Shown here piece after piece: positions 21,355 to 32,000 of a DNA stretch of 32,000 nucleotides. The notes under the pieces were generated by a model. That model was given only the letters and a program-made list of their open reading frames with translations, ran no database searches and had not been told where the DNA came from. Position numbers and translations under genes: made by a program. Origin of the DNA: an uncultured bacterium (GTDB lineage: Bacteria > Auribacterota > JACPWU01). Each line of letters begins with the position of its first letter. The first letter of the stretch is position 1. Location: the NCBI GenBank assembly GCA_964640155.1, contig CAZXEQ010000003.1, forward strand, positions 224,189 to 256,188, written 5' to 3'.

Positions 21355-23051
21355 ACTGTTTTCCCGCTAGGGATCATGGGAAGCACATGCTCTTGATAGG
21401 GGACAATAATATCTAGAAGATAAGGTCCGTCATGGGCCAACATCTTTTCAAGAGCGCCTTTAAGATCTTTTTTGTGTATGACTTTTTGGGCGGGAATCTT
21501 GAAAGATTCAGCCATTTTGACAAAATCTGGATAACTATGCTTAGGATCAGCAGGATCTGCAAGACTTGGGTCACCAATAAATGTATGCCCACGATTGCCT
21601 TTGTAAAAACGATCTTCCCATTGAACAACCATTCCAAGATGCTGATTATTTAAAATGACAATCTTAACTCCAATTTTTTCAATATAAGCAGTAGCAAGCT
21701 CCTGCACGTTCATCACAAAACTTCCATCGCCATCGATGTCGATAACGGTTTTGTTAGGGCAAGCCAGTTTTGCTCCAATAGCTGCAGGGAGTCCAAAACC
21801 CATGGCGCCTAAACCTGCAGAAGTGATAAAACTTCGAGGATGTGTATATTTAAAAAATTGACCGGCCCACATTTGATGCTGTCCTACGCCAGTAGTCACA
21901 ATCGCATCTCCACCTGTAATTTCATAGAGTTGAGAAATGACATGCTGAGGTAAGATTTTATCTTTATCATCTTTATAGCTGAATGGATGTTTAGTCATCC
22001 AACCGGATATTTTTTCTTGCCATTCTTTGTATTCACGACGTTTCACATGCTTGGTTAATTCTTTTAAAAGAAATTTGATATCGCTTACCACTGGGATATG
22101 GACTACTTTATTTTTATTAAGCTCTGAAGGATCAATGTCTGCATGAACAATAATTCCATGCTTGGCAAATTCTTCGACTTTGCCGGTTACACGATCATCA
22201 AAGCGAACTCCAAAGGCAAGTAGGAGATCGGCTTCGTCGACTGCATAGTTTCCGGCAACAGTTCCATGCATTCCAAACCATCGCATGGAAAGAGGATGAG
22301 TTTCTGGAAAAGCACCGATGCCCATGAGTGTCGTTGTGATTGGGATATTAGATTTTTCGACAAATGCTGTGAGTTCATCGGCAGCATCAGAAGAAATAAT
22401 TCCACCGCCTGCATATAGAACTGGCTTTTCACATTCTTCAATGGCGCGCAAAATTTGTTGGATTTGTTGCTCTGAAGCATATTTTTCAGGATGATACCCT
22501 TTCATCTCAATTTTTTCTGGAAATTTAGGTATGCATTGAGCTTGTTGAAGATTTTTAGGAATATCCACGAGCACTGGTCCAGGTCTGCCTGTAGAAGCAA
22601 CATAAAAGGCTTCCTTAATAACATGAGGGATTTCTTCAATGGATTGAACCAAATAATTATGCTTCACAATGGGACGGGTGACACCCACCACATCGGTTTC
22701 CTGAAACGCATTTTTACCAATAAAATGTTGAGGAACTTGACCTGTAATGCAAACCAGAGGAATAGAATCCATGTAAGCATCCGCAATTCCTGTTATGAGG
22801 TTTGTTGCACCAGGACCAGAGGTGGCCATGCAAACGCCCACTTTACCAGAAGCTCGGGCATAGCCTTCAGCTTCAAATACGCCACCTTGTTCATGACGAG
22901 GGAGAATAACACGAATTTTCTTAGAACGGGTTAGAGCTTGATGAAGTTCCATACTCGCTCCACCAGGATAGGCAAAAACATGTTTCACACCTTCTCGCTC
23001 AAGACAAGCAACAACGATGTCTGAGCCCATCATTTTCTGGGATTCGCTCAT
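21333..23051 (-). CDS. ilvB: Acetolactate synthase (acetohydroxyacid synthase) large subunit, biosynthetic type
   Basis: Has 'LPRHEQGGVFEAEGYARASGKVGVCMATSGPGATNLITG' and the ThDP motif 'GLGAMGFGLPAAIGAK...DGDGSFVMNVQELAT'. I prefer ATG 23051 (MSESQK...), which has GAAAGG 7 nt upstream, over the track's TTG at 23066. Confidence 0.85.
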   Translation of the reverse strand: MSESQKMMGSDIVVACLEREGVKHVFAYPGGASMELHQALTRSKKIRVILPRHEQGGVFEAEGYARASGKVGVCMATSGPGATNLITGIADAYMDSIPLVCITGQVPQHFIGKNAFQETDVVGVTRPIVKHNYLVQSIEEIPHVIKEAFYVASTGRPGPVLVDIPKNLQQAQCIPKFPEKIEMKGYHPEKYASEQQIQQILRAIEECEKPVLYAGGGIISSDAADELTAFVEKSNIPITTTLMGIGAFPETHPLSMRWFGMHGTVAGNYAVDEADLLLAFGVRFDDRVTGKVEEFAKHGIIVHADIDPSELNKNKVVHIPVVSDIKFLLKELTKHVKRREYKEWQEKISGWMTKHPFSYKDDKDKILPQHVISQLYEITGGDAIVTTGVGQHQMWAGQFFKYTHPRSFITSAGLGAMGFGLPAAIGAKLACPNKTVIDIDGDGSFVMNVQELATAYIEKIGVKIVILNNQHLGMVVQWEDRFYKGNRGHTFIGDPSLADPADPKHSYPDFVKMAESFKIPAQKVIHKKDLKGALEKMLAHDGPYLLDIIVPYQEHVLPMIPSGKTVKDIIIE

Positions 23052-23079
23052 GAATAAACCTTTCAAAATTTGTGGAAAG

Positions 23080-23088
23080 ATTATAACA
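23080..23088 (-). promoter_or_regulatory. Candidate extended -10 promoter (TGTTATAAT) for ilvB
   Basis: The minus strand reads TTGACAaaagttttttgTTATAAT. A consensus TATAAT with an upstream TG lies ~30 nt before ATG 23051. The TTGACA is only 12 nt away, so it is not a canonical -35. Confidence 0.35.
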
Positions 23089-23122
23089 AAAAACTTTTGT
23101 CAAAGGAAGGAGAAAACAGGCA

Positions 23123-24004
23123 TCATTCTATTTCATGCTCAGGGTCTTCGTGAATAGTAACATCCGCATATTCAAATTTAGCTTTTATTTTTTCAATAAG
23201 AGACTCAGCAATTTCATGGGCGTCTTCAAGATTTTGATCTGATTTAAAAACTAAGTGAAAGTCTATAAAACGCTTGTGCCCTGCTTTGCGTGTACGAAGT
23301 TCATGATAACCCTTAATATGAGAATGGTGATTTTTGATGAGCAGGTCCAATTCATCTAAAGCTCCTTGGGGAAGAGAGCGGTCTACTAGTTCATTACCAG
23401 CTTGTAGTAAAATATGCCCCGCTAAAAATGCAATGTAACCCGCAAGGAAAATCCCGCCTAAGCCATCCCAACCACTCCAGCCTGTTAACTTTACAAGGAA
23501 AATAGAGACGAAGATAATGATGTAAGAGAGAATATCCATCAGATAATGAGATTTTTCTGCTTTTAGAATAAGGGATTCGGTTTTCTTTTCAGTGCGACTT
23601 AAAATGGTTGTGATAATGATATTGATGATGACAGATAGAATGATGACGATGAAAGCTGTCTCAACGTGTTGTATCGGTGCTTTGATGGCAAGATGATGAA
23701 TTGATTTTCCTAAAATCCAAAGGGAAAGAAGAGCAAAAAGAATGCCTTGTGTGTAAGAAGTGAGGCTTTCAATTTTTTCATGACCATAGGCATGATCTTT
23801 ATCAGGAGGTTGCGCGGCTCTTTTAATGGAAAAATAATTAATACCAGATACGCATATATCCATTAAGGAATCTAAGGCTGATGCAAGAAGAGCGGTAGAA
23901 CCCGTGATAAAACTGGCAATGGCTTTGATGAGCGTGAGAATCCCTGAAAGGCCAATGGCCCATCTAACGCTTACTTTCTTTTGATGCAGATTCTGTTCTG
24001 ACAT
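23123..24004 (-). CDS. Cation diffusion facilitator (CDF) family metal efflux transporter
   Basis: Has six TM helices with 'LDSLMD' in TM2 and 'HYLMD' in TM5, the metal site A signature. A C-terminal cytoplasmic domain is present ('HIKGYHELRTRKAGHKRFIDFHL'). Confidence 0.8.
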   Translation of the reverse strand: MSEQNLHQKKVSVRWAIGLSGILTLIKAIASFITGSTALLASALDSLMDICVSGINYFSIKRAAQPPDKDHAYGHEKIESLTSYTQGILFALLSLWILGKSIHHLAIKAPIQHVETAFIVIILSVIINIIITTILSRTEKKTESLILKAEKSHYLMDILSYIIIFVSIFLVKLTGWSGWDGLGGIFLAGYIAFLAGHILLQAGNELVDRSLPQGALDELDLLIKNHHSHIKGYHELRTRKAGHKRFIDFHLVFKSDQNLEDAHEIAESLIEKIKAKFEYADVTIHEDPEHEIE

Positions 24005-24039
24005 GACGTCATTCTAGCATTTTAAACATAAAAATCACG

Positions 24040-25422
24040 TCATTCTCTAATGCGGTAAATAGTAATAGGGGTAGGAATGCCTTTAAATTCAATGGTTTCA
24101 TTGTGAGATTGAACCGGATTTTTTATTTTTTCGTAAGACGAGTGACTTAAAACAGTTTCCCCTTTTTGAGCGATGGAAACAAGTCGAGACGCTAAATTAA
24201 CATCTTGTCCAATGACAGTGTAAGTCATTCTTTTTTCAGAACCAATATTGCCGGCGATGGCAAAACCTGTATTAATACCAATTCCAATTTCTATTTTTTC
24301 AAAACCTTCTTTTTCTAAATCTTTATTTAGATCTTTAAGGGCTTGATGCATTTCTAAGGCCGTTTTTAAAGCGCGTTCAGGGTCATCTGAGTGAGCAATA
24401 GGGGCCCCAAAAACAACCATCATTTCATCCCCAGTGAATTTATCGATCAGCCCTTCATTTTGCATGGCAATTTCTGTCATCACAGTGAAGTATCGGTTTA
24501 GAATCTCTACAATCTGTTCGGGTTTAAGTTTAGACGCCATGGACGTGAACATTCTAATGTCAGAAAATAAAACGGTTACTTCTTTTAGCTCTCCTGTAAG
24601 CGTTGGACGAACTTTTCCTTCAAGGATCTTTTCTACAACTTGATCTGTAGCATAACGCCTGAAAATATCTTTGATCATTTCGCGTTCGCGAAGACCCGCA
24701 ATCATTTCATTGAAAGAATCTGAGAGCGTTTCGAGTTCATCATGGGTTTTGATTTGTGTGGATGTTTGAAAATCACCTTTTGCAACACGTTGAAATCCCT
24801 GAATAAGAATGAAAAGAGGGGCGGTGATTTTATTTGAAATCCAAATGGCTGTAAGAATTCCAATAAGGATTAGTACAAATCCAATTGCAAAATGTTCAAC
24901 CAAGGCTTCAATGATTTCGCCTTCTAAAATTTTGAGAGAGAATCCAATATAAAGACCTCCAAGACTTCCCATTTCAATTTTGACATTGCGAATATCTTTG
25001 TGAAAGGGGAAATGGCCTTCCAAAATTTGCTTTCCTAAAAAAACTGCATCTTGAGAAGATGTTTGAATTTTATTCCAATTAAAAACGGAATCTTCAAGTC
25101 CTCCTGTTGCATCCAGGGTAAGGATATAAATAATAGAAATCGAATAACCTCGTTTGGCAATGGCAGTGTGTATAGTTTTCTCAAGATATTCATGAATAAG
25201 GGATGAAGAAATGGGTTCGCTTAAACCCTGCATTAGGGCAATTTGTTTGCCAAGATTGATCATGAGCTTTGAAGCTTCGTCTTTCTTGAATTCAATTTCA
25301 CGCCATGAAGAAATAAAAAGGGTAATGCTCAGTGTGATGAGAATAAGAATGGTTGTGAGCAAACTTAGCTTTGTTCGAATGCCTAATTTTAAGAAGCGAT
25401 TCTTAAGAGATGTGTCTGGCAT
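24040..25422 (-). CDS. Membrane sensor with HAMP domain and class III adenylate/guanylate cyclase domain
   Basis: Two TM helices flank a ~140-aa periplasmic region. HAMP is present ('PLFILIQGFQRVAKGDFQT...DELETLSDSFNEM'). Cyclase blocks are 'VTVLFSDIRMFTSM', 'KFTGDEMMVVFGAP', 'GINTGFAIAGNIGS' and 'YTVIGQDVNLASRL'. Confidence 0.85.
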   Translation of the reverse strand: MPDTSLKNRFLKLGIRTKLSLLTTILILITLSITLFISSWREIEFKKDEASKLMINLGKQIALMQGLSEPISSSLIHEYLEKTIHTAIAKRGYSISIIYILTLDATGGLEDSVFNWNKIQTSSQDAVFLGKQILEGHFPFHKDIRNVKIEMGSLGGLYIGFSLKILEGEIIEALVEHFAIGFVLILIGILTAIWISNKITAPLFILIQGFQRVAKGDFQTSTQIKTHDELETLSDSFNEMIAGLREREMIKDIFRRYATDQVVEKILEGKVRPTLTGELKEVTVLFSDIRMFTSMASKLKPEQIVEILNRYFTVMTEIAMQNEGLIDKFTGDEMMVVFGAPIAHSDDPERALKTALEMHQALKDLNKDLEKEGFEKIEIGIGINTGFAIAGNIGSEKRMTYTVIGQDVNLASRLVSIAQKGETVLSHSSYEKIKNPVQSHNETIEFKGIPTPITIYRIRE

Positions 25423-25430
25423 TGATAAAG

Positions 25431-25559
25431 TTACTCTCGAGTAGAATTTTTCAAATCTTTAATTATTTTCAAAAGTTTTTTTTGTTGTTGATGTAACTTG
25501 AAAATATAAATGAATAAGGCTGTCCAAACAATTGTATAGGCTAAAAATAAATGGTCCAT
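25431..25559 (-). CDS. ccmD: Haem exporter protein D (CcmD family), 42 aa; absent from the ORF track
   Basis: The hand translation is MDHLFLAYTIVWTALFIYIFKLHQQQKKLLKIIKDLKNSTRE*. This is a single TM helix with the A-Y-x3-W pattern and a basic tail, like CcmD. An AGGAG SD overlaps the ccmC stop, 5 nt before the ATG. It sits between ccmC and the next gene with 8-nt gaps on both sides. Confidence 0.75.
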   Translation of the reverse strand: MDHLFLAYTIVWTALFIYIFKLHQQQKKLLKIIKDLKNSTRE

Positions 25560-25567
25560 GTGCTCTC

Positions 25568-26257
25568 CTAGGATTCTAAGTGATTTTGAATTTTCTGAAT
25601 GTCTTCTTCAGCTTTTAAAAGGGAAACCCTCAGTTTTATTACAACAATATACAAAACAAGAAAGGCCAAGCAGGAGATCATCAATGTTTGAAACATGAGA
25701 GGATCAAGGCCAGAGCCTTCACCTCCGCCAATGACAGGACTCGGATGCTGTGTTCTCCACCATCGAATAGAAAGATAGACAATGGGAACATCCACAAAGC
25801 CAAGAATGCCTAAAACTGCAGATAGAATTTGTTTTTTATGTTCGGGATGAACAAAAGATCTAAGCATAAGATATGAAATATAAATAAGCCAAAGGACAAA
25901 AGACGAAGTGAGTCTTGCATCCCAAGTCCACCAAATGCCCCAAACAGGTTTAGCCCAAAGGGGTCCTGTGATGAGAACGAGCGTAGAAAAAAGAACGCCT
26001 AGTTCAGCTGAAGCAAGGGCAACTCTGTCGAAAATGTTTTTTCTTGTGAAGAGGAAAAGGGTGCTTGCGATAAAAACTACAAAAAATGCAAGAAATGAAA
26101 TCCAACCTGAGGCAACATGAAAATAAAAAATTCTTTGAATATTGCCCATTGTAGATTCAGTGGGTGCAACAAGGAAAATCATCCATAAAGAAACAAGCAT
26201 TGTAAAAAAAAGTAGACTTAAACTAAACAGTGAGTAAACAGAGTTCTTCAAGTTCAT
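25568..26257 (-). CDS. ccmC: Haem exporter/haem-handling protein CcmC
   Basis: Has the WWD motif 'WAKPVWGIWWTWDARLTSS' and conserved flanking His residues ('YFHVASGW', 'WWRTQHP'). About six TM helices. Located after ccmA and ccmB. Confidence 0.85.
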   Translation of the reverse strand: MNLKNSVYSLFSLSLLFFTMLVSLWMIFLVAPTESTMGNIQRIFYFHVASGWISFLAFFVVFIASTLFLFTRKNIFDRVALASAELGVLFSTLVLITGPLWAKPVWGIWWTWDARLTSSFVLWLIYISYLMLRSFVHPEHKKQILSAVLGILGFVDVPIVYLSIRWWRTQHPSPVIGGGEGSGLDPLMFQTLMISCLAFLVLYIVVIKLRVSLLKAEEDIQKIQNHLES

Positions 26258-26287
26258 TTCACAAATCCCAATATATAATTCACAGGT

Positions 26288-26965
26288 TTATTCTTCTATA
26301 ACATATTGAAAAAGCATCAAACTAATTACGAGAAAAATAATGTCATAAGCGACAAGTAGTTTAAACCATGCCGATGTAAAATGAAATTCGCTTTTTAAAA
26401 TCAAATTCGTGCATTCGACACAACTCATAAATAAGGGAGCAATAATCGGAAATAATAAAATAGGAAGTAAAATATCTCTCAAGCGTGTATATAGAGCCAT
26501 GGTAGAAAGAAGAGTGCCTACAGCACAAAATCCACAAGCTCCCAGAAAGAGAATCAAAAGAATTTTATCAATTTGAAAAAAAGAAAAATTAAAAAAGATA
26601 GAAAAAATAGGGAGGATGAGTATTTGACTTAAAAGCATGATGAAAAGATTGGTCAAGCATTTTGCCAAAAAAATACTTTCCGAGGAGACGGGGGATAACG
26701 AAAGAGACTCAAGTCCTGCATTTTCTTTTTCTAAGGTTGCGGTGCGGTTCAAACCTAAAATTCCAGCAAAAGCAAAAGTGATCCATAAAAAACCAGATGC
26801 TAGACGAAGCGTTTCTTCAGAATTAGCTTCAAAAGAAAAATTAAAAAGAAGAAGTTCTAAAACAGCAAAAATAAACATGGAGAAGAAAACTTCTTTTGTT
26901 CTGAGCTCCGTGAGGATATCTTTCTTGAAAATAAGCCCAATTTGGCTCAAAAAATGTTTATTCAT
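26288..26965 (-). CDS. ccmB: Haem exporter membrane protein CcmB
   Basis: A six-TM ABC-2-like protein with the N-terminal 'FKKDILTELRTKE' pattern typical of CcmB. Its ATGA start overlaps the ccmA stop. Confidence 0.75.
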   Translation of the reverse strand: MNKHFLSQIGLIFKKDILTELRTKEVFFSMFIFAVLELLLFNFSFEANSEETLRLASGFLWITFAFAGILGLNRTATLEKENAGLESLSLSPVSSESIFLAKCLTNLFIMLLSQILILPIFSIFFNFSFFQIDKILLILFLGACGFCAVGTLLSTMALYTRLRDILLPILLFPIIAPLFMSCVECTNLILKSEFHFTSAWFKLLVAYDIIFLVISLMLFQYVIEE

Positions 26966-27636
26966 ATTTGTCCATCGCGTAAGTTTTTGTCAGATACTTT
27001 TTCCCCATTTTCAAATGTTATCCATCGTGTGCCTAATGTTTCACTAATCGAAGACTGATGGGTTGAAAGTATGAAAGATTTTCCTTCAGACACATGGTCG
27101 TTTAGTTTTTGATTCAAAAGAGCGCTTGCCGCTTGATCTAAATGTGCATGAGGTTCATCTAACAGTAGAAGACAGGGATAATGAAGAAAAGCCCTTGCAA
27201 GATCAGCTCTTTGTTGTAATCCCCTGGATAAAGTACGTACACGTTTGTTGAAATGGGGTTCAAGATTGAATTCTTGAATCATTTCCTGAGTTCTTTTTTT
27301 TCTGTTTTGAATTTGATAAAGACTTGCAAAAAAAAGAAGGTTTTCTTCAATGGTCAAATCTTGATAGAGATGGATGTTGTGTCCTGCAAATCCGATATTC
27401 CTTTTATAATCAATTTTCTGATGGGAAATTTTCTTGTTTTGATAAAGAATTTCTCCTTGGCTGGGTTCTGTTAAAAGGGCAAGAACTCTCAAAAAAGTTG
27501 TTTTCCCTGCACCATTTTTACCAAGCAAAATAATCGCTTCACTTTTATGAATATTAAATTCGATGTTTTTGAGGGCTTGAACAAAGCCAAAATACTTGGT
27601 GAGTTTGTGAACAGATATTTCAAGGGAAGGGTTCAT
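26962..27636 (-). CDS. ccmA: Haem exporter ATP-binding protein CcmA
   Basis: Has Walker A 'GKNGAGKTT', signature 'LSRGLQQR' and Walker B 'LLLLDEP'. It is short, with no TM, and lies directly upstream of ccmB and ccmC. Confidence 0.8.
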   Translation of the reverse strand: MNPSLEISVHKLTKYFGFVQALKNIEFNIHKSEAIILLGKNGAGKTTFLRVLALLTEPSQGEILYQNKKISHQKIDYKRNIGFAGHNIHLYQDLTIEENLLFFASLYQIQNRKKRTQEMIQEFNLEPHFNKRVRTLSRGLQQRADLARAFLHYPCLLLLDEPHAHLDQAASALLNQKLNDHVSEGKSFILSTHQSSISETLGTRWITFENGEKVSDKNLRDGQI

Positions 27637-28766
27637 TTTTTAAAAAAATAAGCAAGTTGGCTTTTAATTACATCTTTTTGCGTTTGATATTCTTTCGAAG
27701 AAATTTTTCCTTTTTGAAAATACTCGTTTAAGTGAAGAAGAGCTTTTAGGAGATTTTCTTTTTGATCTATATTTTGATTAGATTTGGGCTTCAGAAAAGC
27801 GACCCAACTTCCAAAAATTAATATTAATAATATCCCGCTCGATAAAGGCAAAAGTAAAGATTGAGTTTTGTTAGGGATTCCGATGATTTGAGGTTCGATA
27901 GGCTCTGCTCCTCCTGAAAGTGCTAAAGTGATTGTTTCGTCTTTTTGAAAGGGTCCTCCTTGATAAAGAGCTAAACCTGCTTTTTCGTTACTATCTATCT
28001 TTTTGAAGCTATTGGAATCTAGGATCATGTCTGTGGGATATAACCCTAGATTTAGGAGGGCAACACTGTATGGAAGTATTTCAGTTAAAAGCATAGAAGG
28101 ATTTTGTGATTTAAGCTCATACCTAACTGTGATTTCTGTTTCTCCAGGTTTAATGGGATGTTGAATTGAAAAGAAGCTAGAGTTCGCAATAGGCTTTATT
28201 GTTTGTGGAATGGGCATCATCCCTGTAGAAACAGAAACATGAACTGATTCTTTTGCTTCTGCAGGAAGAAAAAAACGAAATGTTTCTTTGGGCTCAGTAA
28301 ATGTGTGAGGATTTTCAGAATTATTTTTAAGAATAAATATCTTTTGAATTTTAAAAATATTTTTTTCTTTAGCAATAATCCAATAAACTTTATCAAGGGT
28401 TATATTTTCTGAAGAAGAAGTAGTTTCATAAACTGTCGATCTAAGATTTTCAGAAAGAGCGTGTGAGGGTAGGGGTGTGTTGTAATTAACTCCCTGGAAA
28501 TTGACTTGAATAAGATAAGGGATGTTCTCTTCTCGTTCCACTCTTTCAAAGTGATATGTTCCATTATCAACTTTTTTTGTTTGAATTATTTTCATCCCAT
28601 CTTTTAACTCAATCAATCGAACTTCACATTCTTTTGCTGGCTGATGGGTGGTGCCGTTGATGATTTCACCTGTAATCGAAGAGGTTTTGGTGTTAGCTTG
28701 TGCTGGGGAAGTTAGGATGGTGACCAGGAGAATGGTCAGAAAACTAAAACTTGTTTTCTGTTTCAT
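27633..28766 (-). CDS. Uncharacterised ccm-operon protein: signal peptide, periplasmic beta-sandwich-like domains, C-terminal TM anchor and short cytoplasmic tail
   Basis: Has the signal peptide 'FSFLTILLVTILTSPAQA'. 'ITGEIINGTTHQPAKECEVRLIELKDG...DNGTYHFERV' resembles a carboxypeptidase-regulatory-like fold. The TM helix is 'LLLPLSSGILLILIFGSWVAFL'. The tail is 'LLKALLHLNEYFQKGKISSKEYQTQKDVIKSQL'. ATGA overlaps occur at both ends. Confidence 0.5.
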   Translation of the reverse strand: MKQKTSFSFLTILLVTILTSPAQANTKTSSITGEIINGTTHQPAKECEVRLIELKDGMKIIQTKKVDNGTYHFERVEREENIPYLIQVNFQGVNYNTPLPSHALSENLRSTVYETTSSSENITLDKVYWIIAKEKNIFKIQKIFILKNNSENPHTFTEPKETFRFFLPAEAKESVHVSVSTGMMPIPQTIKPIANSSFFSIQHPIKPGETEITVRYELKSQNPSMLLTEILPYSVALLNLGLYPTDMILDSNSFKKIDSNEKAGLALYQGGPFQKDETITLALSGGAEPIEPQIIGIPNKTQSLLLPLSSGILLILIFGSWVAFLKPKSNQNIDQKENLLKALLHLNEYFQKGKISSKEYQTQKDVIKSQLAYFFKK

Positions 28767-29170
28767 GCTTCACCTTTTTTTATCATTTTTTGTCCACATT
28801 GCGGACAGAATTTGGCATCTTCTGGAGGCAGACTTTGACATGAAGGACATGAAATTTTGATTTTTAACACAGAGAGTTCTTTTTCAATTTCCTGATCAAG
28901 TTTGTCCATTTCGCAGAGCACATAAGCTGCTTCTTGTTTGAATTCTCTGCGAATTCTTTCATAGTCCCCTTGGGAAACTTTCCCGATGGAATAATCCAAA
29001 TCAAGGTCTTGAAGATTTCTATAAGAAGTCAATTTTTTTTCCTGAAGATAGGTATAATTGGGATCTTCAAGAATCAGCGTTTGAACATTTTGTCGAGCTG
29101 TATAAAGAGGGAGTAAAATATAAATAATTGCACAAATAAGTGCGATGGCAAAAATAAATTCACTGATCAT
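28763..29170 (-). CDS. Uncharacterised ccm-operon protein: CcmI-N-terminal-like TM segment plus C-terminal zinc ribbon
   Basis: The N-terminal TM 'FIFAIALICAIIYILLPLY' and 'LQDLDLDYSIGKVSQGDYERIRREF' resemble the N-terminal module of CcmI. The C-terminal 'CPSC-x12-CPQC' is a zinc ribbon. No TPR domain is present. Confidence 0.5.
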   Translation of the reverse strand: MISEFIFAIALICAIIYILLPLYTARQNVQTLILEDPNYTYLQEKKLTSYRNLQDLDLDYSIGKVSQGDYERIRREFKQEAAYVLCEMDKLDQEIEKELSVLKIKISCPSCQSLPPEDAKFCPQCGQKMIKKGEA

Positions 29171-29672
29171 TTTTAAATTCCTTTAATTCTTTTTCAATCT
29201 GACAATCAAGTTCTTGATTAAGAGCGGGGGAGTGAGTTTGTAAAACATTTTTCTTGCGAAAGGATTTTAACAGAATGATTACAGTGGCCAGTCCAACGAT
29301 AAGGATAAGGCCTGGTATTATCCAGGCTGTTAAATGAAAACCTTGGACTGGAGGAGCTGAAAGAACTTTTAGGCCATGGGTTTTAACAAATCCATTGATA
29401 ATCATGTTGATGTCTTGACCTTGTTCAATTTTTTCTTCAATTTCTTTTCTCATGGGAGTGGCCGAAGGACAGTTTTCGTGATTGCAAACGGAAAGGATCA
29501 TCAAACAGCTACATTGGCAGACGAGTTTATCTGAAACCTGGTTGAATATTTTAATTTGATCTGTATTTAATTTAGCAGATTGAGTAAACCCATTTGAAAT
29601 AAGAAATAAGAAACATGAAACATGAAACATGAAACTCAAAGAGAGGGTGCTTCTTTTTTTATCTTGCTTCAT
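29160..29672 (-). CDS. ccmH: CcmH/NrfF-like cytochrome c biogenesis protein with a non-canonical Cys motif
   Basis: Has a signal peptide. 'MRKEIEEKIEQGQDINMIINGFVKTHGLKVLSAPP' plus a C-terminal TM helix follow the CcmH pattern. The LRCxxC site is replaced by 'LVCQCSCLMILSVCNHENC'. Confidence 0.65.
   Translation of the reverse strand: MKQDKKRSTLSLSFMFHVSCFLFLISNGFTQSAKLNTDQIKIFNQVSDKLVCQCSCLMILSVCNHENCPSATPMRKEIEEKIEQGQDINMIINGFVKTHGLKVLSAPPVQGFHLTAWIIPGLILIVGLATVIILLKSFRKKNVLQTHSPALNQELDCQIEKELKEFKNDQ
29593..29634. repeat. Heptanucleotide tandem array inside the ccmH signal-peptide region
   Basis: The + strand reads tttgaaa taagaaa taagaaa catgaaa catgaaa catgaaa. These are six consecutive 7-mers, with three perfect copies (29614-29634) and two perfect copies (29600-29613). 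They encode FMFHVSCFLFLIS on the minus strand. Confidence 0.85.
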
Positions 29673-31650
29673 GCTTTATGCCTCCTGCTTCTTTCATGGG
29701 TATTAATAGAATAAAAACACCAAACATAATTACTATTCCGCCAATCCACACCCATTGAACCAATGGATTTACATAGACTTGAATAATTGCTTTTTTCTCA
29801 TCTTCTGAAAATCCTGCAAACACAACATATACATCTTCTAAAACATTAGAATAAATAGCTACTTCAGAAGTAGGTTGTTCACTTGCTTTGTAAAAACGTT
29901 TTTCAGCTTCAAGTTTTTTAATGAATTTGTGATTATAAAATAGATCTAGACCCACGATAGCTGAGGTATAATTTTTATTATCTTCTTGAGTGATACCCTG
30001 ACTTATAAGCTCATATTTTTTAATTGAAAGTTTTTCTCCTGTGCTGATTTCACTTTTAATTTCTTGATTAAAAGCATTTCCTCCCACTCCCACAAATATC
30101 ATGACAATGCCTAAATGAACGACATAGCCTCCATAGCGACGAGCATTTTTGCGTGTGAGGTTGATGAGGGCAATCAATACATTCTCTCTTGTAGAGCGTA
30201 TTCTTGCCAAAGTTCCTCTATAAAACTCAAGAAAAACAGTGAGTATGACAAAAAATGAAAGAGTGAAACAAGTCCACGCATATAAGTGGTGAATACCCAT
30301 AAACCAAATGCTTGCACCCAAAATCATCGAAAGAATAATGGGTAAAGAAAAATTCTTTTTAAGGCTGGCCCAAGATGTTTTGCGCCAGGCTAAGAGAGGA
30401 CCTACCCCTGTTAAAAAAAGTAGAATGATGCCAATGGGAATGTTTACTTTATTAAAGAACGGGGCCCCCACTGTTATTTTTTGACCCTGAACCGCTTCAG
30501 AAATAATGGGAAATACAGTTCCCCAAAGAACGGCAAAGCAGGCTGTGAGTAATATCCAATTATTAAGTAAAAAACCTGCTTCTCGAGATAGAACAGATTC
30601 AAGCGTGTTCTCAGATTTTAGAAAAGAGATTCTTCTAAAAATAACAACAAAACAAAAGACTATAGCGATCATAAGAAAAACAATAAAATAGGAACCAATG
30701 GCGGAACGAGCAAAAGAATGTACAGAGCTTACAATGCCACTTCGTGTCAGAAATGTCCCAAAAATAGACAGAATAAATGTTAGTGCGACAAGAATCATAT
30801 TCCAAATTTTAAGCATGCCTTTTTTTTCTTGAATGAGGCAAGAGTGCAAGAAAGCTGTGGCTGTGAGCCAGGGCATGAGGGATGCATTTTCGACAGGATC
30901 CCAGGCCCAATATCCACCCCAACCGAGTTCTACATAAGCCCATTTGGCGCCCAAGAGAATTCCTGTCCCCAATAAGGCCCAGCTTACAATAGCCCATTTA
31001 CGAGTGGTGCGAATCCATTCTGTACTTTTATTTCGAGTGATGAGTGCTGCCATGGCAAATGCAAAAGGAGCAATCGTTCCAATGTATCCTAAGTAAAGAA
31101 TGGGGGGATGAATCAGCATGGCAAAATATTGCAAGAGCGGATTAAGGCCTTTCCCATCCTCGGGTTGATAGGGATAAATATGACCCTGGCCGTGATCAAC
31201 AACCAGTTCTTTAAAAGGATTGGCTACTACTGTGTTAAGAAGCAGAAAGAAAAAAGAAGTACTCATTAAGATGATGATGATCCAGGGGATTAAACCGATA
31301 TGACGGTGTTTATTTTGGAAAACAATCAGAGCGCTAAAACCCGTAAGAATCCAAGACCAAAAAAGAAGAGACCCTTCTTGTCCTCCCCAAAGGGCGGCCA
31401 GTTTATAAAAAGGGGACATGCTCGAGTTTGAAAATTGGGAGACATATTGAATATGAAAGTTATCGTTTAAAAGCTCTGTCCAAAGAGCAATGATAGCGAG
31501 AGTTACAAAAATCCAAACCATAAAAACAGAATGTCTGGCGCTTTGTATAAGTGAAAATCTTGTTTGTCGAGTTCCCATCCATGCAGCGATGATTGCATAG
31601 GCTGAAAAGGCGAAAGCACAGATGAGAGAGAGATTACCTAGGCTGGACAT
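29659..31650 (-). CDS. ccmF: Cytochrome c haem lyase subunit CcmF
   Basis: A large polytopic protein with the WWD motif 'WGGYWAWDPVENASLMPWL'. Its length and N-terminus 'LGNLSLICAFAFSAYAI' are typical of CcmF. Confidence 0.9.
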   Translation of the reverse strand: MSSLGNLSLICAFAFSAYAIIAAWMGTRQTRFSLIQSARHSVFMVWIFVTLAIIALWTELLNDNFHIQYVSQFSNSSMSPFYKLAALWGGQEGSLLFWSWILTGFSALIVFQNKHRHIGLIPWIIIILMSTSFFFLLLNTVVANPFKELVVDHGQGHIYPYQPEDGKGLNPLLQYFAMLIHPPILYLGYIGTIAPFAFAMAALITRNKSTEWIRTTRKWAIVSWALLGTGILLGAKWAYVELGWGGYWAWDPVENASLMPWLTATAFLHSCLIQEKKGMLKIWNMILVALTFILSIFGTFLTRSGIVSSVHSFARSAIGSYFIVFLMIAIVFCFVVIFRRISFLKSENTLESVLSREAGFLLNNWILLTACFAVLWGTVFPIISEAVQGQKITVGAPFFNKVNIPIGIILLFLTGVGPLLAWRKTSWASLKKNFSLPIILSMILGASIWFMGIHHLYAWTCFTLSFFVILTVFLEFYRGTLARIRSTRENVLIALINLTRKNARRYGGYVVHLGIVMIFVGVGGNAFNQEIKSEISTGEKLSIKKYELISQGITQEDNKNYTSAIVGLDLFYNHKFIKKLEAEKRFYKASEQPTSEVAIYSNVLEDVYVVFAGFSEDEKKAIIQVYVNPLVQWVWIGGIVIMFGVFILLIPMKEAGGIKHEAR

Positions 31651-32000
31651 AGGGCTCGGTAGCTATGGAACTCTTTTTTGTTTTTTGTTCCGCTTCATAT
31701 TTCGATGCACATTTGGCTTGGATTTTTTGTGCTAAGAAGATGCCATTATTATCCAAAGTTCCTTCAACCACAGCTTGACCTCCTTCTTTAAAAGTATCTG
31801 GAACAGGATCTCGGCCAATATAATGGACAGGTAGACTTAAAATTTCCTGCCCCCTGTCGGGGACTGCAGCAGCCTGCCCCCTAGCGGGGACTACAGAAGA
31901 TTGATGTATTGTGAAATAAAGGTCTGTCCCTTTTCTTTGGATAGAACCGTTTGTCACTTCACCTGCAACCCGAACACGTGTGCTTTTACCTTCAGCTTTC
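31634..32000 (-). CDS. ccmE: Haem chaperone CcmE, CxxxY variant; 5' end lies beyond the window
   Basis: The frame stays open upstream of the track's GTG (…KAEGKSTRVRVAGEVTNGSIQRKG…), so the gene continues past nt 32000. The OB-fold pattern 'RV.G.V..GS', 'VPDTFKEGGQAVVEG' and a C-terminal 'AKCASKY' are present where canonical CcmE has AKH..KY. Confidence 0.8.
   Translation of the reverse strand, partial: KAEGKSTRVRVAGEVTNGSIQRKGTDLYFTIHQSSVVPARGQAAAVPDRGQEILSLPVHYIGRDPVPDTFKEGGQAVVEGTLDNNGIFLAQKIQAKCASKYEAEQKTKKSSIATEPYVQPR
31846..31899. repeat. GC-rich 27-nt tandem repeat (2 copies) lying in-frame inside ccmE, each copy forming a hairpin
   Basis: The copies are cctgccccctgtcggggactgcagcag and cctgccccctagcggggactacagaag, matching at 23 of 27 nt. 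On the mRNA strand each contains GUCCCC-NNNN-GGGGGC, a 6-bp stem including one G-U with a tetraloop. They encode VVPARGQAA/AVPDRGQE. Confidence 0.85.

What the first reader, a model, noticed from the sequence alone, without database searches (positions are those of the whole stretch)
25431..32000. Non-canonical System I cytochrome c maturation operon: ccmE(Cys)-F-H(5-Cys)-X-Y-A-B-C-D with two embedded unknown genes
The gene order on the minus strand is ccmE, ccmF, ccmH-like, a 135-aa TM+zinc-ribbon protein (X), a 377-aa periplasmic/TM protein (Y), ccmA, ccmB, ccmC and ccmD. From ccmE through ccmB every junction overlaps (17, 14, 11, 4, 4 and 4 nt). X and Y are therefore translationally coupled inside the operon, not passengers. 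No thioredoxin-like CcmG/DsbE and no TPR-containing CcmI are visible in the window; either could lie upstream of nt 32000. Together with the Cys-type CcmE and the atypical CcmH, this looks like a distinct architecture of the haem-attachment machinery in which X and Y may replace or supplement CcmI/CcmG functions.
Basis: partly seen in the sequence, partly recalled or inferred. Interest (0 to 1): 0.7.

Follow-up and report, generated by a model that had tools for sequence, protein, structure and literature searches.

The report
Cytochrome c maturation operon with split CcmI-like pair
This is a real haem-attachment (cytochrome c maturation) operon of the known cysteine-CcmE "System I*" type, whose two embedded "unknown" genes are a conserved, widespread, unannotated pair that seems to stand in for the usual helper protein CcmI.

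Summary
On the minus strand lie ccmE(Cys)-ccmF-ccmH-like-X-Y-ccmA-B-C-D, with the stated 17/14/11/4/4/4-nt overlaps. A longer copy of the contig shows no ccmG or ccmI in the 6.6 kb upstream of ccmE.

The operon is not unique. The same order occurs in about 86 of 88 related loci, mostly Acidobacteriota (Bryobacterales/Terriglobia) plus Auribacterota- and Chlamydiae-labelled MAGs. The X-Y junction is a 4-nt overlap in 79 of 84 loci.

Cys-type CcmE, with or without CcmH, is the published System I*.

- **X:** a remote relative of the CcmI N-terminal membrane and cytoplasmic module (71 of 72 family members hit TIGR03142, all below its cut-off). It has a zinc ribbon where CcmI has its second helix and TPR domain.
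- **Y:** signal peptide, three periplasmic β-sandwich domains, one membrane helix and a cytoplasmic helix. That helix is homologous to X's module (hhalign 97%, E 1.5e-11). The Y family has at least 1,328 50%-identity clusters at E≤1e-30 and no Pfam or NCBIfam model.
- **Split operons:** X-Y stays with ccmEFH, not with ccmABCD.

Best reading: X and Y are a bipartite CcmI substitute in the haem-ligation complex. This is inferred, not shown. There is no evidence that they replace CcmG.

The parts
31634..32000 (-). ccmE, 3' part. The gene continues past the window end and is 164 aa in L001. It is the Cys-type haem chaperone with motif QAKCASKYE (Cys codon 31709-31711).
   Evidence: PF03100 3.2e-18. 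The full gene is seen in L001. AKC[AP]SKY is present in 75 of 76 related loci.
29659..31650 (-). ccmF, the haem lyase / holocytochrome c synthase subunit (663 aa). It overlaps ccmE by 17 nt.
   Evidence: PF16327 1.1e-64, PF01578 9e-40 and TIGR00353 5e-131 (the last below its curated cut-off).
29160..29672 (-). CcmH-family protein (170 aa): signal or anchor peptide, periplasmic domain, TM helix and a cytoplasmic tail ending in the conserved IEKEL. A multi-Cys motif replaces LRCxxC.
   Evidence: PF03918 6.7e-14, above the gathering score. Weak match to P. aeruginosa CcmH 2HL7. The motif family LxCxCx(1-2)Cx(5-6)Cx(4-6)C recurs across loci.
29469..29519 (-). Cys cluster of the CcmH-like protein (Cys52, 54, 56, 63, 68). 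By motif alignment (L-x-C), the position of the canonical second active-site Cys is Ser55.
   Evidence: Read directly from the sequence and from the alignment with L007's canonical LICPVC.
28763..29170 (-). X (135 aa): N-terminal TM helix, a cytoplasmic CcmI-N-like helical module and a C-terminal zinc ribbon. It overlaps ccmH by 11 nt and Y by 4 nt.
   Evidence: TIGR03142 at E 0.011 for the window protein. 71 of 72 family members hit it, best 7e-7, all below the cut-off. Zinc-ribbon Pfam hits. Two CxxC motifs in 85 of 88 homologues.
28913..29053 (-). X residues 40-86: the cytoplasmic 'eKK..Y.nL.DLd.dY..GK.S..DY' module shared with the tail of Y and with the CcmI loop.
   Evidence: hhalign of the X module against Y tails gives probability 97.4%, E 1.5e-11 over 47 columns. 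TIGR03142 profile positions 5-72 are matched.
28793..28849 (-). X zinc ribbon (C108-x2-C111 ... C122-x2-C125).
   Evidence: PF12773 7e-6 and PF13248 9e-6, both just below Pfam's gathering score. Conserved in 85 of 88 homologues.
27633..28766 (-). Y (377 aa): signal peptide (1-24), three periplasmic β-sandwich domains (about 28-284), TM helix (300-324) and a cytoplasmic helical hairpin (330-376). It overlaps ccmA by 4 nt.
   Evidence: AF2 model with pLDDT 84.9. No Pfam or NCBIfam family. Family size: 6,871 50%-identity clusters at E≤1e-3 and 1,328 at E≤1e-30.
27636..27869 (-). Y residues 300-377: TM helix plus a cytoplasmic CcmI-N-like / SHOCT-like tail.
   Evidence: The X HMM hits Y tails with E down to 2e-9. 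hhalign gives 97.4%. 11 of 24 Y tails hit TIGR03142, the most-hit family by far. The window's own tail does not reach E≤1. One tail (P0014) hits SHOCT at 7.7e-4, and GvpG-like hits also occur.
26962..27636 (-). ccmA, the ATPase of the haem-export / holo-CcmE-release module.
   Evidence: TIGR01189 9.7e-42, 142.9 bits against a cut-off of 131.6.
26288..26965 (-). ccmB, the ABC permease.
   Evidence: PF03379 9.6e-30.
25568..26257 (-). ccmC, the haem-handling WWD protein.
   Evidence: PF01578 9.2e-31 and TIGR01191 9e-43.
25431..25559 (-). ccmD (42 aa), of the alternative CcmD family.
   Evidence: TIGR04391 CcmD_alt_fam 1.9e-11, 43.8 bits against a cut-off of 24.
24040..25422 (-). HAMP plus class III nucleotidyl cyclase gene that starts 8 nt after the ccmD stop. 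It is possibly co-transcribed; whether it belongs to the system is uncertain.
   Evidence: PF00211 and PF00672. Its orthologue overlaps ccmD by 4 nt in L003.

Best explanation
This is a complete System I* (Cys-CcmE) cytochrome c maturation operon. It comes from a low-GC bacterium of the PVC group; the closest relatives are labelled Candidatus Auribacterota and Chlamydiae.

The slot between ccmF/ccmH and ccmA is filled by a conserved two-gene module. From memory, that is where Desulfovibrio's System I* carries ccmI.

- **X** is a single-pass membrane protein with its N terminus outside. Its TM helix and juxtamembrane cytoplasmic helix are remotely homologous to the N-terminal module of CcmI. 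A cytoplasmic zinc ribbon takes the place of CcmI's second TM helix and periplasmic TPR domain.
- **Y** is exported through a signal peptide and displays three β-sandwich domains in the periplasm. It is anchored by one TM helix, followed by a second copy of the same CcmI-like cytoplasmic helix.

Inferred mechanism: X and Y dock through their TM helices and paired cytoplasmic helices onto CcmF and the multi-Cys CcmH, forming the haem-ligation complex. The periplasmic β-sandwich arm of Y then does the job of the CcmI TPR domain. It holds the unfolded apocytochrome c near the CcmF WWD site while haem arrives from Cys-CcmE.

Shown here: gene content, conservation, translational coupling, domain architecture, and the remote homology of the X module and the Y tail to CcmI-N.

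Inferred only: complex formation, apocytochrome binding by Y, and any role for the zinc ribbon.
For: - **Ccm identities:**
- **Synteny:** E-F-H-X-Y(-A-B-C-D) is conserved in about 86 of 88 loci drawn from up to 80 species genomes plus metagenomic contigs.
- **Junctions:** the X/Y junction allows a 4-nt start/stop overlap in 79 of 84 loci. H/X overlaps in 62 of 77 and Y/ccmA in 50 of 70.
- **Split operons:** X-Y stays with ccmE-F-H and not with ccmABCD, as in L006, L008, L018, L029 and L085. L007 reads ccmH-ccmF-X-Y-thioredoxin.
- **X is CcmI-N-like:** TIGR03142 is the family hit by 71 of 72 X homologues, best 7.1e-7, always over profile positions of about 4-88, which cover TM1 and the loop.
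- **Y's tail matches X's module:** hhalign 97.4%, E 1.5e-11. The X HMM hits Y tails down to 2e-9. The Y HMM tail region hits an X protein at 1e-5. 11 of 24 Y tails hit TIGR03142.
- **Y model:** pLDDT 84.9, with signal peptide, three β-sandwiches, TM helix and a cytoplasmic hairpin.
- **Fusion:** one Y relative (P0013) is fused to c-type cytochrome domains.
- **No alternative CcmI nearby:** no TPR gene appears in the Pfam-annotated flanks of six relatives, and no thioredoxin gene except in L007. Neither appears in the window or upstream of it.
- **Literature:** CcmI is an apocytochrome chaperone with two TM helices, a cytoplasmic loop and a periplasmic TPR domain (PMC3884852). In System I*, CcmI enhances cytochrome production but is not essential (PMC3601427).
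Against: - Every TIGR03142 hit is below the curated cut-off (window X: 16.1 bits against 29.3). Part of the score comes from a TM helix plus a SHOCT/GvpG-like helix that also occurs in unrelated proteins.
- The window's own Y tail does not hit TIGR03142 at E≤1.
- No direct evidence shows that X, Y, CcmF and CcmH interact, or that Y binds apocytochromes. Y has no conserved Cys or His, and its fold matches are generic β-sandwich proteins with TM-score about 0.3.
- The genome sample was retrieved with motifs taken from the family. It is dominated by one order of Acidobacteriota, so '86 of 88' counts relatives rather than independent events.
- A TPR-type CcmI, CcmG or CcdA may be encoded elsewhere in these genomes. 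Whole genomes could not be examined.
- Leptospira carries a stand-alone Y-like paralogue without ccm neighbours.
Confidence: 0.55

Rival explanations
1. X, Y and the multi-Cys CcmH are adaptations to the thioether chemistry of Cys-CcmE. On this view they dock holo-CcmE and help break the haem-Cys bond or hand haem to CcmF, rather than chaperoning the apocytochrome.
For: The Cys-type motif AKC[AP]SKY is present in 75 of 76 CcmE proteins of X-Y loci. The review notes that release of haem from a CcmE thioether is chemically unexplained (PMC3601427). The atypical CcmH motif co-varies with the module.
Against: The association is measured within a phylogenetically narrow sample. L007 combines X-like and Y-like genes with a canonical CPVC CcmH and a thioredoxin; its CcmE type is unknown. 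Desulfovibrio and archaeal System I* work without a reported X-Y. Y has no conserved Cys or His to take part in the chemistry.
Confidence: 0.15
2. X is a cytoplasmic sensor or adaptor. Its zinc ribbon and helices would couple the haem-ligation complex to a cytoplasmic partner such as the ribosome or Sec translocon, the haem supply, or a redox or metal signal. Y would be mainly a structural scaffold, so the pair regulates or localises maturation rather than binding substrate.
For: The zinc ribbon is conserved in 85 of 88 X homologues, although CcmI has nothing similar. Y's best PDB fold matches are ribophorin I / Ost1. From my own knowledge, these are type I membrane subunits of oligosaccharyltransferase whose cytosolic helices contact the ribosome. 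A HAMP-cyclase gene is coupled to ccmD in two PVC genomes.
Against: The fold match is weak (TM-score about 0.3, rmsd about 30 Å over the whole chain). L007's X-like protein lacks the zinc ribbon. No partner has been identified.
Confidence: 0.1
3. X/Y replace the missing thiol-reduction branch (CcmG/CcdA), which was part of the first reader's suggestion.
For: No thioredoxin-like gene lies in the window or in the 6.6 kb upstream. Cys-rich proteins (the CcmH-like protein and the X zinc ribbon) flank the module.
Against: Y has no conserved cysteine and an all-β, non-thioredoxin fold. X's four Cys form a classical zinc ribbon on the predicted cytoplasmic side, with no membrane-embedded Cys to relay electrons. 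L007 has X-Y plus an adjacent thioredoxin gene. System I* is reported to work without CcmG.
Confidence: 0.05
4. X and Y belong to the CcmABCD haem-export module, or are unrelated envelope proteins that merely sit in the operon.
For: Y is translationally coupled to ccmA by a 4-nt overlap in the window, and 37 of 70 loci allow the same overlap. A Y-like paralogue in Leptospira is not linked to ccm.
Against: In at least six loci with adequate flanks the operon is split, and X-Y remains with ccmEFH while ccmABCD is absent from the locus. X and the Y tail resemble CcmI, a ligation-complex subunit. Conservation of order and coupling across phyla argues against hitch-hiking.
Confidence: 0.05

Closest known systems
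System I* (variant Ccm system with Cys-CcmE; Allen et al. 2006, Goddard et al. 2010, reviewed in PMC3601427)
   Same: Both have CcmE with Cys in place of the haem-binding His (CxxxY), the ccmE-ccmF...ccmABCD gene set, and no ccmG in the operon. The review states that about one third of Cys-CcmE bacteria keep CcmH, and that CcmI enhances maturation without being essential.
   Different: The motif here is CASKY, whereas CPSKY is the reported majority. The CcmH has a 5-Cys CxCxC...C...C cluster instead of LRCxxC. In place of a TPR CcmI there are two genes, X and Y, which are not mentioned in any paper I could search.
CcmI / CycH (Rhodobacter capsulatus, Pseudomonas aeruginosa; TIGR03142 N-terminal domain plus TPR domain)
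   Same: X and the Y tail share the TM helix and the cytoplasmic helical motif of the CcmI N-terminal module. The genes lie next to ccmF/ccmH. The predicted topology of X (N terminus outside, loop in the cytoplasm) matches CcmI TM1.
   Different: The module is split over two proteins and duplicated. X has no second TM helix. Neither protein has a TPR domain. The periplasmic part is an all-β triple sandwich placed N-terminal to the anchor, which inverts the CcmI order. X also adds a zinc ribbon. All scores are below the family cut-off.
NrfF/NrfG of the NrfEFG haem lyase (E. coli)
   Same: It is a specialised CcmH-like (NrfF) plus CcmI-like (NrfG) accessory pair attached to a CcmF paralogue. The window's CcmH-like protein gives a weak NrfF hit (TIGR03147, 2.2e-6) and its CcmF scores highest on NrfE-type models.
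   Different: Scores are far below the NrfE and NrfF cut-offs. NrfG is a TPR protein. No nrfA or CXXCK cytochrome lies nearby. The operon also carries ccmE and ccmABCD, so it is the general maturation system.
Ribophorin I / Ost1 subunit of oligosaccharyltransferase
   Same: It is the best structural match to the Y model (Foldseek E 2.5e-7 to 6e-6). From my own knowledge, the layout is the same: β-sandwich domains on the non-cytoplasmic side, one TM helix and a cytosolic helical tail. It is an accessory subunit of a membrane enzyme that modifies unfolded secreted polypeptides at a short motif.
   Different: TM-score is only about 0.3 with roughly 10% identity, and there is no sequence relationship. 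This is an analogy and not a family assignment.

Membership tests
System I* (Cys-CcmE Ccm variant) | CcmE with Cys replacing the haem-binding His in the [H/C]xxxY motif | tested here: met
   QAKCASKYE in the window. The motif is invariant in the 6-sequence alignment and present in 75 of 76 related loci.
System I* (Cys-CcmE Ccm variant) | Presence of the CcmA, B, C, (D), E and F core | tested here: met
   Pfam and NCBIfam hits for all six proteins.
System I* (Cys-CcmE Ccm variant) | Absence of CcmH. This was the original 2006 description, but the 2011 review says it is not characteristic because about one third keep CcmH. | tested here: not met
   PF03918 CcmH at 6.7e-14, 51.8 bits against a cut-off of 25. 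Literature caveat from PMC3601427.
System I* (Cys-CcmE Ccm variant) | No CcmG required or encoded with the system | tested here: inconclusive
   No thioredoxin-fold gene lies in the 32-kb window or in the 6.6 kb upstream. The rest of the genome could not be examined.
Canonical System I (CcmABCDEFGH(I)) | CcmE HxxxY histidine | tested here: not met
   Cys occupies that position.
Canonical System I (CcmABCDEFGH(I)) | CcmH with a redox-active LRCxxC motif | tested here: not met
   The window has LVC52-Q-C54-S55-C56. Aligned by the L-x-C motif, the +3 position is Ser. Relatives show CxCxC or CxCxxC followed by two or three more Cys. The single-sequence AF2 model was too poor (pLDDT 54) to show the geometry.
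CcmI / CycH | N-terminal membrane module (TIGR03142: TM1, cytoplasmic loop, TM2) | tested here: inconclusive
   X scores 16.1 bits, E 0.011, against a cut-off of 29.3. 71 of 72 X homologues hit it, best 7.1e-7, over profile positions of about 4-88 only, so TM2 is not covered. 11 of 24 Y tails hit it, best 2e-4. hhalign against E. coli CcmH was uninformative.
CcmI / CycH | Periplasmic TPR domain that binds apocytochrome c | tested here: not met
   No TPR hit in X or Y. Y's periplasmic part is all-β in the AF2 model. hhalign of Y against E. coli CcmH, including its TPR region, gives probability 0.2%.
CcmG / DsbE thioredoxin-like reductase | Periplasmic thioredoxin fold with a CxxC motif | tested here: not met
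   Y has no conserved Cys and a β-sandwich fold. X's CxxC pairs form a zinc ribbon.
Ribophorin I / Ost1 | Sequence or strong structural homology over the luminal domains | tested here: not met
   Foldseek probability is high, but TM-score is about 0.3 and identity about 10%. There is no sequence hit in the PDB.

The most novel reading that the evidence does not exclude
X-Y would be a previously unrecognised class of apocytochrome c handling machinery. Y would be a β-sandwich, Ost1/ribophorin-like periplasmic substrate holder, mechanistically unrelated to TPR chaperones. X's cytoplasmic zinc ribbon and helices would tether the CcmF/H haem lyase to the translocating ribosome or Sec machinery, making haem attachment co-translocational in these bacteria. 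The multi-Cys CcmH would provide a self-contained thiol relay that makes CcmG unnecessary.
Probability: 0.1. Interest if true: 0.85.

Novelty: new variant of a known kind. Interest (0 to 1): 0.58.

Why it matters
System I* raised a question that is still open: how can cytochromes c be matured with a thioether-linked CcmE and without the usual CcmH, CcmG and CcmI helpers?

This locus, together with about 86 related loci fetched here and 188 species genomes that encode a Y relative, shows two things for a large group of soil Acidobacteriota and some PVC bacteria:

- The 'missing' CcmI function is probably supplied by a conserved, translationally coupled pair of proteins that no database model recognises.
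- CcmH is present, but with a different cysteine arrangement.

This gives concrete genes to delete, co-purify and model. It would also improve annotation of a protein family with thousands of members that are currently labelled 'hypothetical' or 'carboxypeptidase regulatory-like'.

Tried and rejected
- **Direct homologue search for X:** only 3 proteins were found. X homologues had to be collected from the loci instead.
- **The search for related loci with broad Y alignments:** A narrower alignment worked for genomes. The single metagenome scan returned only one locus, L091, which reads ccmF-X-Y-ccmA-ccmB with no CcmH hit.
- **hhalign against E. coli CcmH:** neither the X family nor the Y family gave anything. 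E. coli's fused CcmH is a single sequence, and I expected it to lack the loop motif, so this is uninformative rather than negative.
- **PDB sequence searches:** no related solved structure for X or Y.
- **Promoter and terminator scan of 22800-32000:** no more sites than in shuffled sequence.
- **CXXCH scan:** no c-type cytochrome gene in the window or in L001.
- **Primary System I* papers:** Goddard 2010 and Aramini 2012 are not held. The statement that Desulfovibrio's operon carries ccmI between ccmF and ccmA therefore rests on my memory and on the review's remark about CcmI.
- **Haem-binding CcmH rejected:** the Cys cluster contains no conserved CXXCH or CXnCH motif across relatives.

Full report
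**1. The observation**

The junction overlaps are exactly 17, 14, 11, 4, 4 and 4 nt from ccmE to ccmB. A 30-nt gap precedes ccmC, and 8-nt gaps precede ccmD and the next gene.

Pfam and NCBIfam identify the proteins as follows:
- CcmE: PF03100, 3e-18.
- CcmF: PF16327, 1e-64.
- A CcmH-family protein: PF03918, 6.7e-14, above the gathering score.
- CcmA: TIGR01189, above its cut-off.
- CcmB and CcmC.
- An 'alternative' CcmD: TIGR04391, above its cut-off.

ccmE runs off the window. A longer assembly of the same sequence (L001) gives a 164-aa CcmE. Upstream of it are a short intergenic region and two large divergent ORFs without Pfam hits. There is no ccmG or ccmI within 6.6 kb.

CcmE has QAKCASKYE, with Cys where His is expected. 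The mature CcmH-like protein carries Cys52, 54, 56, 63 and 68. Aligned by the shared L-x-C motif, Ser55 sits where the canonical LRCxxC motif has its second Cys.

The rest of the window holds an exopolysaccharide-type cluster, acetolactate synthase, a CDF transporter and a HAMP-cyclase. It holds no thioredoxin, TPR or CXXCH gene.

**2. Conservation of X and Y**

A direct search with Y found only 14 relatives. The closest come from MAGs. In every case with enough context, the homologue sat inside a ccm cluster:
- L003, a MAG labelled 'Chlamydiae bacterium', has E-F-H-X-Y-A-(small insert)-B-C-D.
- L005 has E-F-H-X-Y-A-B.
- L006 and L008 have E-F-H-X-Y only.
- L009 has the full nine-gene order.
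- L007 reads ccmH(CPVC)-ccmF-X-like-Y-like-thioredoxin, next to alternative complex III genes.

A profile of the 14 sequences retrieved 293 proteins in the indexed database. In the exhaustive 50%-identity library it retrieved 6,871 representatives at E≤1e-3 and 1,328 at E≤1e-30. Y therefore belongs to a large family that has no Pfam or NCBIfam model.

A scan of one genome per species found 188 genomes with a confirmed relative. The best match (73% identity) is a Candidatus Auribacterota MAG. Nearly all the others are Bryobacterales, Bryobacteraceae, Solibacteraceae or Terriglobia. Two are Leptospira.

I built HMMs from the loci and tabulated gene order offline.
- About 86 of 88 loci show ccmE-F-H-X-Y, followed by ccmA-B-C-D where the contig allows.
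- The two Leptospira loci carry a stand-alone Y-like paralogue without ccm neighbours.
- CcmE is of the Cys type (AKC[AP]SKY) in 75 of 76 loci.
- The CcmH-like proteins share LxCxCx(1-2)Cx(5-6)Cx(4-6)C.
- X has two CxxC pairs in 85 of 88 loci.
- The X/Y junction allows a 4-nt start/stop overlap in 79 of 84 loci, the most conserved junction in the operon.

Caveat: the search motifs and the HMMs come from this same family, and the sample is dominated by one acidobacterial order. These numbers show conservation within a clade plus a few distant lineages. They are not independent replicates.

**3. What X is**

X has an N-terminal TM helix, a basic helical region and a C-terminal zinc ribbon (PF12773 and PF13248).
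- The window protein gives a sub-threshold hit to TIGR03142, the N-terminal domain of CcmI (E 0.011; residues 6-80 against profile positions 5-72 of 118).
- All five other X homologues tested individually gave the same sub-threshold hit.
- In an alignment of 72 X proteins, 71 hit TIGR03142 at E≤0.1 (best 7.1e-7). No other family apart from generic zinc-ribbon and GvpG-like models comes close.
- The matched part of the profile corresponds to TM1 plus the cytoplasmic loop. The last 30 positions, which I take to be the second TM helix, are not matched.

X is therefore best described as a CcmI N-terminal-like protein in which the second helix and the periplasmic TPR domain are replaced by a zinc ribbon that I predict to be cytoplasmic. 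It fails the curated threshold, so I do not call it a CcmI orthologue.

**4. What Y is**

The AlphaFold2 model built from the 14-sequence alignment has mean pLDDT 84.9. It shows:
- a signal peptide (my reading of the sequence places cleavage after AQA24);
- three β-sandwich domains (about 28-112, 122-220 and 224-284);
- a TM helix (300-324);
- two cytoplasmic helices (330-376).

Some relatives carry a weak CarboxypepD_reg hit for the first domain. Foldseek against the PDB returns ribophorin I / Ost1 first, followed by the N-terminal β-domain of M1 aminopeptidases. TM-scores are only about 0.3, so this is a fold-level analogy and not a family assignment. No Cys or His is conserved in the family.

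The cytoplasmic tail of Y is homologous to the cytoplasmic module of X.
- The X HMM hits the TM-plus-tail region of many long-form Y proteins, with E down to 2e-9.
- The Y HMM tail region hits an X protein at 1e-5.
- hhalign of the X N-module against 78 Y tails gives probability 97.4%, E 1.5e-11 over 47 columns.
- Eleven of 24 Y tails hit TIGR03142 (best 2e-4). That is by far the most frequent family, although the window's own tail does not reach E≤1.
- One tail (P0014) also resembles the SHOCT motif, and several give GvpG-like hits.

The short acidobacterial Y proteins lack the tail and always have X beside them. The window's Y has both.

**5. Mechanism**

The literature describes CcmI as two TM helices joined by a cytoplasmic loop (a leucine zipper in R. 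capsulatus) plus a periplasmic TPR domain. That domain chaperones apocytochrome c to CcmF/H (PMC3884852).

Here the same kind of membrane and cytoplasmic module is present twice. One copy is attached to a zinc ribbon (X). The other is attached, in inverted order, to a periplasmic β-sandwich arm (Y).

Three observations place the pair in the ligation module rather than the export module:
- tight translational coupling of H-X-Y-A;
- segregation of X-Y with ccmEFH when the operon is split, as in L006, L008, L018, L029 and L085, and in L007;
- a Y relative fused to cytochrome c domains (P0013).

I therefore propose a CcmF-CcmH*-X-Y complex in which Y's periplasmic arm replaces the TPR domain as the apocytochrome holder. 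X and the Y tail would provide the CcmI-1-type anchoring.

This step is inference. I put it at roughly 0.4-0.5 on its own. I put the weaker claim, that X and Y are integral CcmI-related subunits of this Ccm system, at about 0.85.

The role of the zinc ribbon and the chemistry of the multi-Cys CcmH remain unexplained. The single-sequence model of CcmH was too poor to help.

**6. Comparison with what is known**

Cys-CcmE systems are the published System I* (Allen 2006; Goddard 2010). The 2011 review makes three relevant statements (PMC3601427):
- about one third of bacteria with Cys-CcmE retain CcmH;
- CPSKY is the commonest motif;
- CcmI enhances cytochrome production in System I* but is not strictly required.

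Four things appear not to be described in the papers I could search:
- the X/Y pair;
- its relationship to CcmI;
- the size of the Y family;
- the CxCxC-type CcmH.

The primary System I* papers were not available to me. I could not check whether Desulfovibrio clusters contain X/Y-like genes, and my recollection that ccmI sits between ccmF and ccmA there is unverified.

**7. Verdict**

Novelty: a new variant of a known kind. Interest is moderate to high for the cytochrome-biogenesis field, because the finding supplies concrete candidate genes for an open question and exposes a large unannotated family. The function remains inferred from genomic context and remote homology.

Noticed in passing
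window 31840-31895 (minus strand, inside ccmE): The window's CcmE carries an in-frame insertion of about 54 nt, giving 'VVPARGQAAAVPDRGQE'. The five other aligned CcmE proteins lack it. The insertion consists of two copies, 27 nt apart, of a GC-rich palindromic 19-mer GTCCCCG-NY-AGGGGGCAGG (2 matches, 0 expected by chance). The surrounding genome is about 36% GC. It looks like a small hairpin repeat that inserted and duplicated within a surface loop.
   Followed up: partly
window 24040-25422 (-); L003 14039-15439: A membrane HAMP plus class III adenylate/guanylate cyclase gene starts 8 nt after the ccmD stop. In the Chlamydiae-labelled MAG its orthologue overlaps ccmD by 4 nt. It may be co-transcribed with the ccm operon in these PVC bacteria. 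The acidobacterial loci lack it.
   Followed up: partly
L001 1-6412 (upstream of ccmE, beyond window nt 32000): Two very large ORFs transcribed divergently from ccmE (1108 aa and at least 976 aa) have no Pfam hit at E≤1e-5.
   Followed up: no
L083 7923-8951; L088 7992-9005: Leptospira genomes, including L. weilii, encode a stand-alone Y-like protein (about 340 aa, with the NGT motif). None of my ccm HMMs hits the 8-kb flanks. The β-sandwich family therefore also has members not linked to ccm.
   Followed up: partly
L091 1355-1404; L044, L071, L078, L079: In a few relatives no CcmH-like ORF is detected between ccmF and X, so ccmF is followed directly by X-Y. The multi-Cys CcmH is therefore not obligatory for the X-Y module.
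   Followed up: partly
L006 3377-4439; L008 4355-5402; L009 4606-5476: In the three acidobacterial loci with gene calls, ccmE is preceded by an ECF sigma factor gene. After it comes a small ORF with a single CXXCH motif, possibly a haem-binding anti-sigma factor that regulates the ccm operon.
   Followed up: no
window 29160-29260 (CcmH-like C-terminal tail) and 28870-28900 (X): The cytoplasmic tail of the CcmH-like protein ends in a conserved 'QIEKELxE' motif; its Glu162 column is invariant in the 6-sequence alignment. X contains a similar 'QEIEKELS' stretch just before its zinc ribbon. This could be a coincidence or a shared interaction motif.
   Followed up: no
window 1-20900: The first two thirds of the window form an exopolysaccharide / O-antigen-type cluster. 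It includes glycosyltransferases, a heparinase II/III-like protein, a Wzy-type ligase, a Wzz/tyrosine-kinase, a Poly_export/SLBB protein, a BBP2 β-barrel porin and a UDP-GlcNAc 2-epimerase. It is unrelated to the finding.
   Followed up: yes
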